Shown here: positions 10,722 through 54,600 of the stretch, in pieces | Numbering within the stretch: position 1 is the first letter of the stretch | Layout: every line of letters begins with the position of its first letter | DNA from: Octopus vulgaris | Lineage: Eukaryota | Direction of reading: 5' to 3' | DNA: 64,000 nucleotides | Assembly (NCBI GenBank): GCA_951406725.2 | Contig: OX597819.1 | Location: forward strand, 94,736,001-94,800,000 | Made by a program: the position numbers and the translations under genes | The notes under the pieces: generated by a model | Databases searched by the model: none | What the model saw: only the letters and a program-made list of their open reading frames with translations | Told to the model about the DNA's origin: nothing

Positions 10722-10819
10722 GGAGTAAACACATAAATGTGAAACAAGGTGGAAAAAAGAGTACTCAAATACCAGTGGTAGAGTAATATGCTTTATTTTA
10801 AGCAGCAGAAAATTCAACA

Positions 10820-10906
10820 AAATCTGTTACTCTGAGTTTCTCGTTGCCGTTCATCAGACAGTTTTTGTCTGATGAACGGCAACGAGAAACTCAGAGTAAC
10901 AGATTT
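10820..10906. ncRNA. Back-to-back minimal type I hammerhead ribozyme motifs in a perfect 41-bp inverted repeat
   Basis: Each arm reads (C/U)UGU-CUGAUGA-ACG GCAA CGA-GAA-ACUC A GAGU-A-ACAG: stem I, canonical core, GNRA-capped stem II, near-palindromic stem III and a GUA cleavage triplet. Confidence 0.7.
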
Positions 10907-10909
10907 CTT

Positions 10910-10947
10910 AGAAATTTGAAAAGCTACACGCGAAACCGGTAATTTCT
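10910..10947 (+). ncRNA. Minimal type I hammerhead motif with U3-A8 variant core
   Basis: AGAAAU-UUGAAAA-GC UACAC GC-GAA-ACCGGU-A-AUUUCU: 6-bp stem I, 2-bp stem II, palindromic stem III, GUA site. Confidence 0.65.
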
Positions 10948-27949: not shown

Positions 27950-28168
27950 GGTATTTACTATGTATATTTCCTATGACGTAACAAAAATGTTGGTTAATTA
28001 GCATATAATGGGTTTACGTCATCAATATTTGTGCGTAAATGTACGGTCAATATAGACTTTGTAAAGAAAAGCAAAACCTAGATATTACCAGAGACTATTT
28101 ATAGATAAGTTGTATTAAAACGAAGTACACTAAAGTAATTTACTATTAAGATAATGTTTTATCTCAAA

Positions 28169-28559
28169 CTAGCAGTATCGCCCGGCGTTGCTCGGGTTTG
28201 TAAGGGAAATAACTATATAAGCATTTATAGCCAAAAAAAATAGCAAAAAAATGCATCAAAAATGGAAAAAAAATTATGGTAAATTTTTTTTTAAATCGTT
28301 GACTCATCGTAGACATTTTTAGAGAGTTACTTCCCCTATATAATAGCGAAAAACATGCATTAAAATGGAATAAAATGATGGTAAATTATTTTTTAAATCG
28401 TAGACTCATCGTAGACGCGCGCTAATACCCAGAAGGGCTCGATATGAATCACGACTATAAGATACCCGGTTTTGGTTAAACTGCACCGCAAAATGTGGGA
28501 GTAGTTAGGAATCTAAATCGTAGGAGACAGACACACAACTTCACTTTTATATATAAAGA
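28169..28559 (-). mobile_element. Non-autonomous Helitron (~390 bp)
   Basis: The minus strand reads A|TCTTTATATATAAAAG ... hairpin CCCGAGCAACGCCGGG ... CTAG|T. Confidence 0.85.
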
Positions 28560-28769
28560 TTTAGTTTTATGAATTATTATAAAAATTTCAACGATATAGT
28601 TATGAGAGACGTGCTTAATTGAATTTATTGTAAAATACCAATACACTGCCACGCATAGAAGACATAATGTACATCTACACTGTTTAATTAAAATATTATA
28701 CTGTATTATATCATATTATGTTAAATCATATTATATTATAAATATATGTTTTTTCCGCAATATTACAAA

Positions 28770-30360: not shown

Positions 30361-30762
30361 TCTATCTATTTATATAAAAGTGAAGTTGTGTGAGTGTCTG
30401 TCTCCTACGATTTAGATTCCTAACTACTCCCACATTTTACGGTGCAGTTTAACCAAATTCGGGTATCTTATAGTCATGATTCATATCGAGCCCGTCTGGG
30501 TATTAGCGCGCGTCTACGATGAGTCTACAATTTAAAAAAAATTTACCATAATTTTTTTCCATTTTAACGCATATTTTTTAAATAAAGGGAAGTAACTCTT
30601 TAAAAATGTCTACGATGAGTCAACAATTTAAAAAAAAAATTTACCATCATTTTTTTTCCATTTTTAATGCATTTTTTTGCTATCTTTTGGCTATAACTCT
30701 CTAAAAATGCTTATATAGTTATTTCCCTTACAAACCCGAGCAACGCCGGGCGATACTGCTAG
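30361..30762 (+). mobile_element. Non-autonomous Helitron copy, inverted relative to 28169-28559
   Basis: TC...TATATAAAAGTGAAG...CCCGAGCAACGCCGGG...CTAG|T. A truncated third copy lies at 30984-31080. Confidence 0.85.
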
Positions 30763-31554
30763 TTATACATATAATTATATGAATATCATATGAATATGAT
30801 CCAACAGTAGTTGTGCACATGCACGTTATCAGGTTATTTCAGAATATGCCTTTATTCTAAAGTAGAATATGTGTATGAAGCAATGGGAAACTAGACGTGA
30901 TCCAGCAGTGGTCACAAGGCTACTCACCTGATTGAGTGCCAGTACACAGCTGTTGGCGCTGGATCGTATTTATTTATATAGCACTAGCAGTATCGCCCAG
31001 CGTTGCTCGGGTTTGTAAGGGAAATAACTATATAAGCATTTTTAGAGAGTTATAGCCAAAAAATAGCAAAAAAATGCATTAGCACAGAATAATTGCTCGG
31101 CTAGAGGTGGCGCTGCCAAATTCGCGATACCCAGATATTGTTTTGAGCTGAGTGGGGGGTGCTAGTCAATAATTCTTAAATTTCGGAGATCATAAGATAG
31201 AGAACAAGAAGTTAAAAGTTCCAATACTGGCCCAATACCTACACCCCAGATTCTTCAACTATTTTATAAGAAAGGGGTTAATGGCAGGATAGGGATTCAG
31301 CTTTAAAATAAATTGTATAACAAAAAATACATAAATAAATTACTGCTCCAATGATGTAATTTTAGTATGTGTGTATGTATGTATGTGTGTGTGTGTGTGT
31401 GTAAGCAATGCAAACAATGGAAAATAATTTAAACACTCATTTTCTGATGTCTAAGGATGGATATTTATGCATATGAATCTTTTTCTTTTTATTTTCTTTC
31501 AAATATAATTCTAGGGAACTGAAAAAGCTGTGTACGATGCCAAGCGAATTTAGC

Positions 31555-31655
31555 TATTTACGATGAGCGGATGTTTACGTTACAAACGAATCTGTAGGTC
31601 TATTTACATGTTTACGTTAACTACATCACAAAATAGCTGTTTACGTCACAGTAAC
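31555..31655 (+). promoter_or_regulatory. Cluster of forkhead-type TRTTTAC motifs; candidate RNF32 promoter region
   Basis: TATTTAC at 31555 and 31601; TGTTTAC at 31572, 31609 and 31638; also TTACGTCA and CAGTAAC. Confidence 0.3.
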
Positions 31656-31779
31656 AATATTTTGAGAGGCAGTAAATAATATGAGGTTGAAAGAAAGAAT
31701 ACCATTGGTTAAAATTCGAATTATTAAACAACGTTAAACTTAGAAATTACAATTCCGTTTTCATTTTGGTTTACAATTA

Positions 31780-33012: not shown

Positions 33013-33785
33013 ACACCACCAAAGCACCAACAAATAAGTTCAAAACAATGTATCCTACAATGTATAATCTAAGACAATATCTAATCTAAATAAAGTAATA
33101 GAGTAACGAACATTAGAGTGAGTTGTTGCATACACAAATGGTCATGTCATATATCTAGCAGTCCTTCACTCATTGTGCTATTCTGGATTAATATACTGAG
33201 TACCCAACTTTCCAAGGACACACACTGCATGTCTTTTTCTTTCTTTTTTTTTCTGTTCTTTTATCATCCTAAATATTTCTCATTTTTGGAAGCTTGTACA
33301 AGCCACTTTGTCTCATTTTTATTTCCTATCAAAACGACAATCTTCAAGGAATTTCTTCTATAAACATTAACCTAAGCTCTGTTATTAATCAATGTTCGAT
33401 GAATAAGAATGACAATGAAGATGACAAATATTTACATGGCTGTTGTGTCTAAAATGTTTTTGAGAAGTAGAATGAAAAAGGATACAAATAACAACAGCAA
33501 AAAAAAAAAATTGATGTAAATCAAATCCATTTGAAGCAAGAATTTTTCCAATGATAGTATGCAATCTCTATAAAATTCTTCAGGTTTAACAATTACAAAT
33601 TCAGTAAAAGCACTAATTATGGCTTCTCAAGTTTTGACTGTTTTATTATAGATTGATAGCTCAATATGTTTAGCAAAATATCAAGTAAAAGTGAAGTAAG
33701 CTGCAAGACTCCATATTTCAATTTTCTAACCTTAGACACTGCCAGTTGAGAAGCATATTATAATTTGTATATGGCTATTTTAAAT

Positions 33786-34124
33786 CAGTTGCAGCGTGGA
33801 AGGTATTTATAAGCCATTTAAGAAACACACAAAAAGCGTTAGATTCACTTCAACATTTAAATTTAATTTGTCAAAATATTTTCGTCGTTTCAAGACCGCA
33901 ACCTGTTCACTGACAAAATTCCATGCAGCACGGAATTTTGTCAGTGAACAAGTTGTGGTCTCAAAACGACGAAAATATTTTGACAAATTAAATTTAAATG
34001 TTGAAGTGAATTTAACGGTTTTGGGGTGTTTCTTAAATGGCTTATAAACACCTTCCGTGCTGCAATTGTTTTTGTTCCTGCACACGATCTCAGAACAGGT
34101 CACTTGCTATGCAAGTACATCTCC
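33786..34124. mobile_element. Fold-back retro-insertion: ~283-bp palindrome plus tail, 12-bp TSD, G3-C8 hammerhead motif in each arm
   Basis: Near-perfect palindrome at 33786-34068 centred near 33927. TSD GCTATTTTAAAT at 33774-33785 and 34125-34136. Confidence 0.8.
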
Positions 34125-34458
34125 GCTATTTTAAATGTTTTTCAGTAATCACTTGACAATATGACTGGGCTAGTGTTTTCCCAAGCTCTAAGGTAGAGAC
34201 AAACAAATATTATATTAGATATACAAGTGAAACATAGTGGAAAAAGTGCAGAAAATTCAAATGAATTAATAATAACCAAAGAGTGTGTACAATGAAAATA
34301 AATATGCCAAATGAAAAGAAATGGAAGAGGATCTAATGTTAAAAGTTATACCCTGAAGAACAGTAAAAATTAAGAAGAGGAGAAGAAAAATATAGGAATG
34401 CTATCAATTTTACATGTACACATCTATATATCTACATATGTTTCTGGGTTTTTTTTAG

Positions 34459-34612
34459 ATGCCCCAAAACTATAATGCAGCTTTAATTGCTGCAGCTATT
34501 CAAGACCATTTAAGTTTGAAGGCATCTGGGAATAAAGCAGTTACGAGAATTCCTCCACTCTACTCTCTGACAAGAAAGAAGAATATCAAAGCAGTGGTTG
34601 ACACTGGACTTA
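34459..34612 (+). CDS. RNF32: RING finger protein 32, coding exon 1
   Basis: ttttttag|ATG, MPQNYNAALIAAAIQDHL...KAVVDTGL, GTAAGT donor (phase 1). Matches human AVALQDH...KAIIDTGL. Confidence 0.85.
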
Positions 34613-42277: not shown

Positions 42278-42690
42278 GTAACTATAATTATTCAAAACAG
42301 ATTTGATATGTCTATAATTTCATGTCACTTCAGATAGTTAATCTCTCTCCAGGAAGCAATGCAATTAATATTTTTGGTGAGTAACTCTGGTTAGCTTTAC
42401 TCAAGCAGACTTAAGCAACTGAATTTTTAATTACTGGTGATAATGTGTTAAAATTTGTAACATTTGATATCATATACATATAACTGAAGATTTATTAGCA
42501 TTATATTAGGTTTCATTTTATTTTTAAATACCAAATCCCAATGCAAGGCAAAACAACATACATTTTCTAAGGTTTTACATCAAGTTTCCTAAATGATGTA
42601 AACATATTTGGTACAAATTGCTGGTGTAACTTTTTTTTAAGATTTTATAAATTATTACTCAATAGCAAAAGAGAAATACTATATTAAATA

Positions 42691-42994
42691 CTAGCAGTAT
42701 TGCCCAGCGTTGCTCGGGTTTGTAAGGGAAATGACTGTATAAGCATTTTTAGAGAGTTACTTCCCTTATATAAACCAAGCAAAAAATGCATTAAAAATGC
42801 GGAAAAATGATGGTAAATTTTTTTTAAATCGTAGACTCATCGTAGACACGCGCTAATACCCAGAAGGGCTCGATATGAATCACAACTATAAGATACCCGC
42901 TTTTGGTTAAACTGCACTGCAAAATGTGGGAGTAGTTAGGAATCTAAATTGGAGTAGACAGACTCTCACACAACTTCATTTTTATATATAAAGA
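42691..42994 (-). mobile_element. Non-autonomous Helitron copy
   Basis: Same family as 28169-28559, with an internal deletion. Confidence 0.85.
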
Positions 42995-43359
42995 TTAGCC
43001 AAATAAAGAAATGTATGATGATGTTTTCACTAAGGCCAAAGCAGAACATCTATAAAAGAATTTACTTCATGAAGCATTCTAGCATCATAGCTTCATAGCC
43101 ATATTCTTTATGATTGTGCCTTAGAAGCCAAAGTTGAAGATTCTTCTTTTTTCATGATGATCTTCATTTAGGAGAGATTATTGAATAATCACACACTGCT
43201 TATATTCAAGATGGTTTTCCAGATAATTAAGAAGTTTGATGTGAGGCTGTTCATATTCTTTTTCAAAATGGAATTTGTTTCTAAACAAAATTATATATAA
43301 ACACTTCCTATTCAATGGGCAGAGGTCTGAATAATATCTTTTATATTATTACATAATAG

Positions 43360-43509
<150 letters not shown>

Positions 43510-44172
43510 TAGTACTAAATGCTAGATGCCATTTTTTTTTTAACTTTTAAATGATTATATGTTGAACTTTTAGAACCAGTAATACATTTTGTTTGAGTTG
43601 ATTAAACGAGGATGACCAATCACTGCTAAGGTACAAGATTAAAACAGTGATGTTTTTAAAGGCCAGAATTGAAAATCCCTCATACTACACAAGCCTTTTC
43701 TCATTTCTGAAGTCTTGAGCAAAGTCTTGTGTGTAGTGTTTGAGGGAATGAGACAAATGTGGATGATGAGAGATTTTCAATTCTGGCCTTTAAATACATC
43801 ACTGTTTTAATCTTGTACCTTAGCAGTAATTGGGCATCCTTGTTTAATCAACTCAAAGAAAGTGTATCACCTTCTGAAAATTTTTCTATTCCCATTTTTC
43901 CACTCGTCAACAATATGCAAAAGTTGAAGCTGAACATCAGCTGCATTGGCTACCTTGTCAGAGGGTCTACAAAGGTGTGCGCTGCTACATCAGAATACAT
44001 GGTAAATTGTTTTAAATCTCAGTTTGCCTTCAACTGGTTTATAAATGACAAGTTGAAAGAAAGCTGCTCTAAATTCTTAAATGATTATTAGATTTAATCC
44101 GTTCGTTAATATAATAGCTATGAAATGTAGGTAGTTTGTTTTTAGAGTCAGCACAATTATGAAAACAGCTGA

Positions 44173-54363: not shown

Positions 54364-54600
54364 TATGGACATTTCATATAAACTCTAGATCTGGCTGTAA
54401 TAGTCGGGCTGTTTAAGTCGTCTTTTAATCAACAGAATGGGTAGAGACCGAATTGAACTACAGCTACAGACAGAATTACTTGTGATTCTCTTTCCGTCCC
54501 TTATAATTCGGTCTACCCATACCACATTCTGTTGATTAAAAGACGACTTAAACAGCCCGACTATTACAGCCAGATCTGGTGTTTATATGAAATGTCCATA
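54364..54600. repeat. Long inverted repeat (~76-bp arms plus an inner stem), MITE-like or fold-back
   Basis: TATGGACATTTCATATAAAC...CAACAGAATG and its reverse complement ending GTCCATA; inner stem GACCGAATT/AATTCGGTC. Confidence 0.85.

What the first reader, a model, noticed from the sequence alone, without database searches (positions are those of the whole stretch)
33786..34124. 283-bp palindromic retro-insertion with a 12-bp TSD and a G3-C8 hammerhead in each arm
Seen: a near-perfect palindrome plus a ~56-bp tail, bounded by an exact 12-bp duplication GCTATTTTAAAT. Each arm reads UUUGUCA / GUGAACA / R / GUUGY..9 nt..ACGAC / GAA / AAUAUU / U / UGACAAA: a 7-bp stem I, a G3-C8 swapped core, one extra purine after A9 and a palindromic stem III. 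Known: an extra nucleotide after A9 is tolerated in a natural viroid hammerhead, and Penelope-like elements leave inverted-terminal insertions. Inference: this is a non-coding, ribozyme-bearing fold-back element mobilised by a Penelope-type RT. It lies ~335 bp upstream of the RNF32 ATG exon, probably in a 5'UTR intron, where it would form a ~140-bp dsRNA.
Basis: partly seen in the sequence, partly recalled or inferred. Interest (0 to 1): 0.8.

Follow-up and report, generated by a model that had tools for sequence, protein, structure and literature searches.

The report
Mirror-image stump of a Penelope retrotransposon
This palindrome is two head-to-head copies of the short end piece of a protein-coding Penelope-type jumping gene, carrying an untested hammerhead-ribozyme motif with a swapped core pair, and its unequal arms likely record the enzyme starting to copy the RNA at two fixed sites about 56 bases apart.

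Summary
In detail: 141-bp arms (13 mismatches), a 56-bp tail, a 12-bp duplication, and a hammerhead-like motif in each arm. A related species' contig shows the empty site.

It is not a separate non-coding family. The arm is the terminal pLTR piece of an autonomous-type Penelope-like element (PLE; RT plus C-terminal GIY-YIG, Neptune/Nematis-type linker), and its last 88 bases are the first 29 codons of that ORF.

Copies end at two sites about 56 nt apart. Inverted pairs join one long and one short end in 30 of 31 classable cases, and in 12 of 13 in a young sister family. Some partner arms hold sequence that the other arm lacks. This points to two separate primings, not fold-back.

G3 and C8 each occur in 25 of 27 copies; the sister family has C3-G8 at the same place. 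Cleavage is untested. In any transcript the one sense motif is predicted to be locked in the long hairpin.

The scan noted similar stumps in shark and fish DNA.

The parts
33774..33785 (+). Left copy of the target-site duplication
   Evidence: a contig of organism B joins 33758 to 34125 with 12 letters between, where the window has 15 non-element bases (record 12)
33786..33926 (-). Inverted arm: pLTR end piece ending at the family's short 3' terminus (about ATG+32)
33867..33917 (-). Hammerhead-like motif of the left arm (G3-C8, extra G, 4-bp stem II)
33923..33926 (+). Junction microhomology ATGC; also the family's preferred 5' boundary
   Evidence: 78 of 91 sampled copies begin within 6 nt of this point
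33923..34124 (+). Direct arm plus tail: pLTR end piece ending at the family's long 3' terminus (about ATG+88)
   Evidence: 85-92% identical to the pLTR ends of RT/EN-coding copies L152, L156, L158, L159, L161
33937..33987 (+). Type I minimal hammerhead-like motif: stem I 33937-43 with 33981-87, core GUGAACA 33944-50, extra A 33951, stem II 33952-56 with 33966-70, GAA plus palindromic AAUAUU 33971-79, predicted cut after U 33980
   Evidence: activity untested
34037..34124 (+). Start codon and first 29 codons of the PLE RT-endonuclease ORF (MAYKHLPC...)
   Evidence: 72% identical to the N-terminus read from L161, which aligns with the sister family and with P0015 and P0017
34069..34124 (+). 56-bp PLE 'tail': the stretch between the two 3' termini, coding sequence in the full element
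   Evidence: same spacing (ATG+26 and +82) in the sister family
34125..34136 (+). Right copy of the target-site duplication
34459..34612 (+). Host ATG exon of a RING-IQ-RING gene (RNF32-like); context, not part of the element

Best explanation
The 339-bp insert is two head-to-head copies of the terminal pLTR piece of a coding Penelope-like retrotransposon between target duplications, likely made in one integration event in which both nicked target strands primed reverse transcription, one at each of two fixed start sites about 56 nt apart in the element's RNA. Shown: family membership, the ORF start inside the arm, two discrete 3' ends, long-with-short pairing, the duplication and the empty site. 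Inferred: the GIY-YIG endonuclease makes an 11-12-bp staggered cut in AT-rich DNA. One strand primes at the far site (arm plus tail) and the other at the near site (arm only). Both cDNAs run to the RNA's 5' end, probably a capped start about 20 nt before the hammerhead core, and join through the ATGC microhomology. The hammerhead motif belongs to the parent pLTR, where it would act weakly and as a dimer, if at all. In this copy it is predicted to be trapped in the hairpin, and the insert is likely a neutral passenger in the host gene's first intron.
For: Family and parent: the arm plus tail has 1,540 first-look candidates genome-wide, 40 scored. Walking upstream led through a microsatellite-rich spacer (572 junction matches) to a GIY-YIG end and an RT. 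L150 has an 839-aa open frame with DKS, RT motifs (SMDVVSLYPSI, GGAIG, YVDD), CxxxCxxC and GIY-YIG/CCHH-like residues. L161 is the full textbook layout: inverted truncated copy with the short end, pLTR, ORF, pLTR with the long end. In L096 and L161 the tail runs on into the ORF. Two ends: of 91 copies anchored on an exact 27-mer in genome order, 43 end at 198-205 and 32 at 129-153, while 16 end elsewhere; none of the 43 long ones continues into the ORF. Pairing: of 44 with an adjacent inverted arm, 31 were classable, giving 30 long+short, 1 short+short and 0 long+long. In 11 pairs the arm reaching the 5' boundary is the short one and its truncated partner is long, against 8 the other way. In L218 the partner (178-205) lies wholly in the tail, which the other arm lacks. 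The sister family repeats this: ends at ATG+26 and +82, 12 of 13 pairs long+short, and a partner arm confined to the tail in L284. 5' end: 78 of 91 start within 6 nt of one point. Of 21 that keep AG before it (5 more dropped as explained by microhomology), 15 have G at -3 where the parent has C (p 5e-7 against 20%). Literature: a Poseidon PLE cuts and extends both strands and starts RT at two internal sites that bound the tail (PMC11167929, parts 1-2 of 4 read).
Against: No biochemistry exists for this family. [quoted passage not shown] 13 of 44 pairs could not be classed. Clear duplications of 10-16 bp were recovered in only 12 of 33 non-simple flanks, and 31 more flanks were simple repeats. 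The 91-copy sample is conditioned on holding the 27-mer, so it excludes shorter truncations. Pfam gave no RT or GIY-YIG hit for L150 or the sister ORF, so the domains are called from motifs and homologs. The 5' boundary also reads as a splice acceptor (CTAAC..TTTCTCAG), so 'transcription start' is not proven. The empty site rests on one contig.
Confidence: 0.8

Rival explanations
1. Same PLE origin, but the inverted arm is made by self-priming: one cDNA (or an antisense template) folds back at the ATGCA palindrome and copies itself, and the endonuclease later trims one end to leave the tail.
For: Self-priming is proposed for head-to-head junctions in PMC3846280 (passages read), and endonuclease resolution for the tail in PMC8557442 (passages). 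In the window both arms reach the 5' boundary and meet at a short palindrome, as do 11 of 31 classed pairs.
Against: A fold-back copy cannot hold sequence missing from its template arm. In 11 pairs the boundary-reaching arm is short and the truncated partner carries the tail; in L218 and L284 the two arms do not overlap.
Confidence: 0.1
2. One reading: a distinct non-coding, ribozyme-bearing fold-back element (retrozyme- or SINE-like) that spreads as a palindromic unit using a PLE enzyme in trans.
For: 78 of 91 sampled copies are short and lack the upstream body. Non-autonomous pLTR derivatives exist (bioRxiv 10.64898/2026.07.22.740005, part 1 of 5 read). Some short copies could be transcribed and re-copied.
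Against: The unit is the pLTR end plus ORF start of coding copies. Palindrome centres differ from copy to copy, and 47 of 91 have no adjacent inverted arm. I saw no head-to-tail arrays of the 200-nt unit in the sampled copies. A short RNA ending at the tail would lack the downstream ORF stretch that the Poseidon protein needed (PMC11167929).
Confidence: 0.06
3. The hammerhead is only a look-alike or a dead relic in this family, and the G3-C8 state is a decayed core that spread with an active element that does not need cleavage. This rival concerns the ribozyme only and is compatible with the best explanation of the insertion.
For: HHR mutants did not impair insertion in vitro, and the C3G/G8C double mutant only partly rescues cleavage (PMC11167929; PMC8495972 passage). 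The cut site is UUU. The family's extra base is G (24 of 27), which I recall as harmful in the viroid case (De la Pena and Flores 2001, not read). 5' ends do not cluster at the predicted cut. The sister motif has C at position 9.
Against: 1 in 20,000 shuffles. It has the position and traits of PLE minimal hammerheads: extra base between 9 and 10.1, G10.1-C11.1 and a palindromic helix III (PMC4209133, parts 1-2 of 4 read). Against the sister motif, both the 3-8 pair and a stem II pair change on both sides. Two subfamilies differ at 0 of 42 stem and core positions, 5 of 9 loop II positions and 5 of 81 downstream positions (weak, only 5 copies in the second subfamily).
Confidence: 0.35
4. A MITE or other DNA fold-back transposon whose inverted arms are transposase ends.
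For: Long inverted arms and a target duplication.
Against: One-sided tail, variable duplication length, variable junctions, solo arms, and identity with an RT-coding element.
Confidence: 0.01

Closest known systems
Inverted-pLTR, tail-bearing insertions of endonuclease-positive Penelope-like elements (PMC3846280, PMC8557442; passages read)
   Same: Head-to-head inverted truncated copy, one-sided tail, duplication of about 8-12 bp, pLTR that includes the first codons of the ORF, AT and (TA)n targets, partial tandems in full copies.
   Different: The tail is 56 nt, not 30-40. The insert is reduced to the last 205 nt. The long-with-short pairing is counted here; those passages call the tail optional or one-sided and give no count.
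Poseidon element of Anolis carolinensis (PAc), PMC11167929
   Same: Two RT start sites inside the ORF bound the tail; hammerhead next to the start codon; AT-rich targets.
   Different: PAc starts 111-118 nt into the ORF and has a C3-G8 core. Poseidon lacks the CX2-5CxxC linker that this family has.
Neptune/Nematis-type PLEs
   Same: C-terminal GIY-YIG with CCHH-like residues and an upstream CxxxCxxC linker; (TA)n bias.
   Different: The DKG motif reads DKS. No tree against named reference families was built, so the clade is not assigned.
Minimal type I hammerheads of metazoan PLEs (PMC4209133)
   Same: Extra base between 9 and 10.1, G10.1-C11.1, palindromic helix III for dimer folding, located in the pLTR.
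   Different: The 3-8 pair is G-C. The natural covariant reported in PMC4209133 and in PMC3088659 (passages) is U3-A8; G3-C8 appeared only as an engineered variant in the papers I saw.
Animal non-LTR retrozymes (bioRxiv 10.64898/2026.07.22.740005)
   Same: Short repeats with a type I hammerhead, derived from pLTRs.
   Different: Retrozymes are head-to-tail tandem and non-coding. This is head-to-head, dispersed, and carries the ORF start.

Membership tests
EN+ Penelope-like element (parent family) | Single ORF with RT and C-terminal GIY-YIG endonuclease bearing CCHH | tested here: met
   839-aa open frame in L150 by motif inspection; 279 homologs; no Pfam hit
EN+ Penelope-like element (parent family) | pLTRs from partial tandems flank the ORF | tested here: met
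   L161
EN+ Penelope-like element (parent family) | Adjacent inverted 5'-truncated copy and one-sided tail | tested here: met
   window, L161, and 44 of 91 sampled copies
EN+ Penelope-like element (parent family) | pLTR plus tail overlaps the ORF start | tested here: met
   ATG at 34037
EN+ Penelope-like element (parent family) | Target-site duplication made on insertion | tested here: met
   12 bp in the window; empty site in one contig of organism B; 10-16 bp in 12 of 33 non-simple flanks
EN+ Penelope-like element (parent family) | Retained spliceosomal intron in the pLTR or 5' UTR | tested here: inconclusive
   branch-point and acceptor-like sequence at the 5' boundary; no donor or spliced copy found
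Neptune/Nematis clades | CX2-5CxxC linker between RT and EN | tested here: met
   CQSNCAVC in L150
Neptune/Nematis clades | RT phylogeny with named members | not tested
   no named reference proteins were among the hits
Minimal type I hammerhead ribozyme | Core with a Watson-Crick 3-8 pair, GAAA and NUH | tested here: met
   G3 25 of 27, C8 25 of 27; site UUU (3 of 30 loci dropped: one duplicate, two ending early); non-canonical order of the pair
Minimal type I hammerhead ribozyme | Stems I and II, G10.1-C11.1, palindromic helix III | tested here: met
Minimal type I hammerhead ribozyme | Matches a curated hammerhead model | tested here: not met
   no Rfam hammerhead family at E up to 10
Minimal type I hammerhead ribozyme | Self-cleavage | not testable with these tools
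   only assembled contigs were laid
Non-LTR retrozyme | Head-to-tail tandem units, each with a hammerhead | tested here: not met
   head-to-head or solo in the sampled copies
Non-LTR retrozyme | Non-coding | tested here: not met
   carries the first 29 codons of the parent ORF
MITE / DNA fold-back transposon | Symmetric terminal inverted repeats, fixed unit and fixed duplication length | tested here: not met

The most novel reading that the evidence does not exclude
Octopod PLEs integrate by obligate twin priming on one RNA: a protein dimer primes the two target strands at two fixed sites 56 nt apart, and transcripts that start just upstream give about 205-nt 'strong-stop' cDNAs ending at the cap, which explains the tail, the inverted pLTR and the mass of short copies at once. 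The family also carries a natural, working G3-C8 hammerhead. A young sister family with intact 1,312-aa ORFs offers the enzyme to test it.
Probability: 0.4. Interest if true: 0.7.

Novelty: new variant of a known kind. Interest (0 to 1): 0.45.

Why it matters
The single insertion is an ordinary dead PLE stump and probably neutral. The family data matter more. How PLEs make inverted pLTRs and tails is still open: self-priming and endonuclease resolution were proposed, and internal initiation was shown in vitro in 2024. The near-strict long-with-short rule in two families, with non-overlapping arms in some pairs, argues for two primings and can be tested with the intact sister enzyme. A fixed G3-C8 core would extend known natural hammerhead covariation, and descriptors limited to C3-G8 or U3-A8 would miss these copies. 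Such palindromes in introns are also candidate double-stranded RNA in an animal group known for heavy A-to-I editing (recalled; not tested here).

Tried and rejected
1. Rfam at E up to 10: only generic miRNA-type hairpin matches, rejected.
2. ORF scan and all-against-all comparison of flanks of the first 30 copies: no shared coding sequence, because these are short copies; the link came from two copies with shared upstream sequence.
3. Search for a C3-G8 version with the same stem II: 2 genome hits, neither folding as a hammerhead under my descriptor.
4. A first regular-expression hammerhead scan returned nothing owing to a script flaw and was rewritten.
5. A short spliced first exon as the source of the 5' boundary: no shared bases beyond -3, so disfavoured.
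6. Ribozyme cleavage as the source of the 5' boundary: the boundary lies about 58 nt upstream of the predicted cut, rejected.
7. A helix closing the 5' end onto the short terminus: appears in the window copy but not in the folds of two other copies; not relied on.
8. No RNA holder was listed for the window stretch, and only contigs could be laid, so expression, strand and A-to-I editing could not be judged; A>G differences appear in the DNA runs too.
9. The upstream exon of the host gene was not located.
10. Pfam missed the RT and endonuclease.
11. One search was a self-comparison with no information.
12. Literature: 'hammerhead + G3C8' gave 0 papers. Searches gave only engineered G3-C8 or C3G/G8C in the passages read. 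In one search no listed paper held both 'twin priming' and 'pLTR' (15 of 16 listed). PMC13282606 (passages) counts recently active Penelope families in Octopus vulgaris but has no 'hammerhead' or 'ribozyme' in its main text. Lunse et al. 2017, De la Pena and Flores 2001 and all supplements were not seen and could already report these points.

Full report
**Observation.** A 12-bp direct repeat (33774-33785, 34125-34136) brackets two 141-bp inverted arms with 13 mismatches and a 56-bp tail. The fold is far beyond shuffles (z -28.6). Each arm holds a type I hammerhead-like motif with a G3-C8 core. These were the only strict hits in the window, and 1 of 20,000 shuffles matched as well. Rfam did not recognise the motif. 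Contigs of organisms C and D cross both junctions of the insert, while one contig of organism B joins 33758 to 34125 with 12 letters between, the expected empty site.

**What it belongs to.** The right arm plus tail is a high-copy repeat (1,540 first-look candidates). Two of 51 early copies shared upstream sequence. That junction occurs 572 times and leads through a microsatellite-rich spacer to a GIY-YIG domain and an RT. L150 holds an 839-aa open frame with DKS, RT, CxxxCxxC and GIY-YIG motifs. L161 shows the complete layout: inverted truncated copy, pLTR, ORF, pLTR with tail. In L096 and L161 the tail continues into the ORF, whose start codon lies inside the repeat, at window 34037. This N-terminus aligns with a sister family and with database homologs. 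So the window element is the last 205 nt of a pLTR, ORF start included, plus an inverted copy. It is not a separate non-coding family. Pfam did not recognise the domains, and no tree was built, so 'Neptune/Nematis-type' rests on the linker described in PMC8557442 (passages).

**How it likely formed.** I took the first 90 of 575 exact matches to a 27-mer in genome order, which gave 91 anchors in 90 loci. 43 end at the long terminus, 32 at the short one and 16 elsewhere. 44 have an adjacent inverted arm. Of the 31 classable pairs, 30 are long+short, 1 is short+short and none is long+long. In 11 pairs the arm that reaches the 5' boundary is short while its truncated partner carries the tail, against 8 the other way, and in L218 the arms do not overlap. 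A simple fold-back cannot produce these.

A homolog search gave P0001 (60% identical, named by its source as an Octopus vulgaris protein). It marks a young family in this genome, with copies about 99% identical and open frames up to 1,312 aa and 3,050 exact matches to its hammerhead-like 29-mer. In its first 30 anchors the ends fall at ATG+26 and about +82, again 56 nt apart. 12 of 13 inverted pairs are long+short and one has an intermediate end; two of the pairs were paired by coordinates. PMC11167929 (parts 1-2 of 4 read) showed that a Poseidon protein extends both target strands and starts at two internal sites bounding the tail. My inference is twin priming at those two sites. That paper saw no strand preference for either site, so the strict pairing asks for coupling, for example a dimer on one RNA, which is untested.

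**The 5' boundary.** 78 of 91 copies start within 6 nt of ATGCAGC, and 13 extend upstream. Of 21 that keep the AG before it, 15 have G where the parent has C (5 microhomology cases dropped). No base further upstream is shared. This fits an extra G copied from a cap at a transcription start (mechanism recalled), giving short complete cDNAs of the RNA's 5' end. The same bases also read as a splice acceptor, so this step is inferred. The boundary is about 58 nt upstream of the predicted ribozyme cut, so cleavage does not make it. In the sister family only 7 of 30 anchors start in one zone (-58 to -70 from the core).

**The hammerhead.** In 27 copies chosen by the upstream junction and not by the motif, G3 and C8 each occur 25 times, the extra base is G in 24, and stem II is GUCGC/GCGAC. 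The window's A and its G-U pairs are departures from that. The sister family has CUGAUGC-G-GUCACA/UGUGAC-GAAA-UU upstream of its own start codon, so the 3-8 pair and one stem II pair change on both sides between families, though the sister has C at position 9. The extra base, G10.1-C11.1 and the palindromic helix III are the stated traits of PLE minimal hammerheads, which cleave poorly in vitro (PMC4209133, parts 1-2 of 4). Natural U3-A8 is reported there and in PMC3088659 (passages). I found G3-C8 only as an engineered, partly active variant (PMC11167929; passages of PMC8495972 and PMC3884650; searches), and I did not see Lunse et al. 2017 or any supplement. Subfamily comparison is weakly in favour of constraint (0 of 42 stem and core positions differ). 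In the window, either strand's transcript makes the antisense arm first, and the ribozyme fold is about 67 kcal/mol worse than the hairpin, so this copy is predicted not to cleave.

**Host context.** The exon at 34459-34612 follows an AG, splices to 36578 in two RNA-guessed runs, and has 49 upstream letters from elsewhere in one contig. RING, IQ-like and RING pieces follow, which fits RNF32 as I recall it. An unspliced contig of organism B spans the site, compatible with an intron, though it may be DNA. The first exon was not placed and editing could not be tested.

**Verdict.** A real feature and a known kind of insertion. What is new is modest but testable: a family-wide G3-C8 core and a counted long-with-short rule in two families. 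Earlier notes of this scan describe similar stumps in shark and fish DNA; they are unchecked and add no independent support.

Noticed in passing
L254-L283, for example L259:184-4119 (+); tandem at G000:C19:14370617-14385160: A young, probably still active PLE family: 56 scored matches, most 98-99% identical, with open frames up to 1,312 aa that include a long asparagine-rich stretch (similar inserts are described in PMC3846280). Its hammerhead-like motif has C at position 9.
   Followed up: partly
L297 and the L259 pLTR, 25 nt before the hammerhead core: A GTAAGT donor-like site in the sister pLTR; one copy begins exactly on it. A possible 5' UTR intron.
   Followed up: no
L091 (G000:C2:171239000-171248900): Three copies of the unit about 3.4 kb apart, with flanks 95-97% identical between two of them: a local tandem duplication, not a PLE tandem.
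   Followed up: no
L146 (+) 3-641: A 213-aa open stretch of a different GIY-YIG-type protein beside a copy of this family; probably another PLE family.
   Followed up: no
window 43579-43870, 54364-54600, 10809-10917: Three other self-complementary repeats in the window that do not match this family.
   Followed up: no
window 30364-31081: A repeat with a nested 115-bp inverted copy, also present at 28144-28560 and 42690-42996.
   Followed up: no
window about 31520-31700: A CpG-richer stretch with TGTTTAC and GTTAAC/GTAAC-like words (recalled as FOXJ1- and RFX-type sites); a candidate promoter of the host gene, but laid contigs suggest that part of it is repetitive.
   Followed up: no
G000:C16, first 17 Mb: Many endonuclease-bearing copies of this family, 90-97% identical to each other, cluster on C16.
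   Followed up: no
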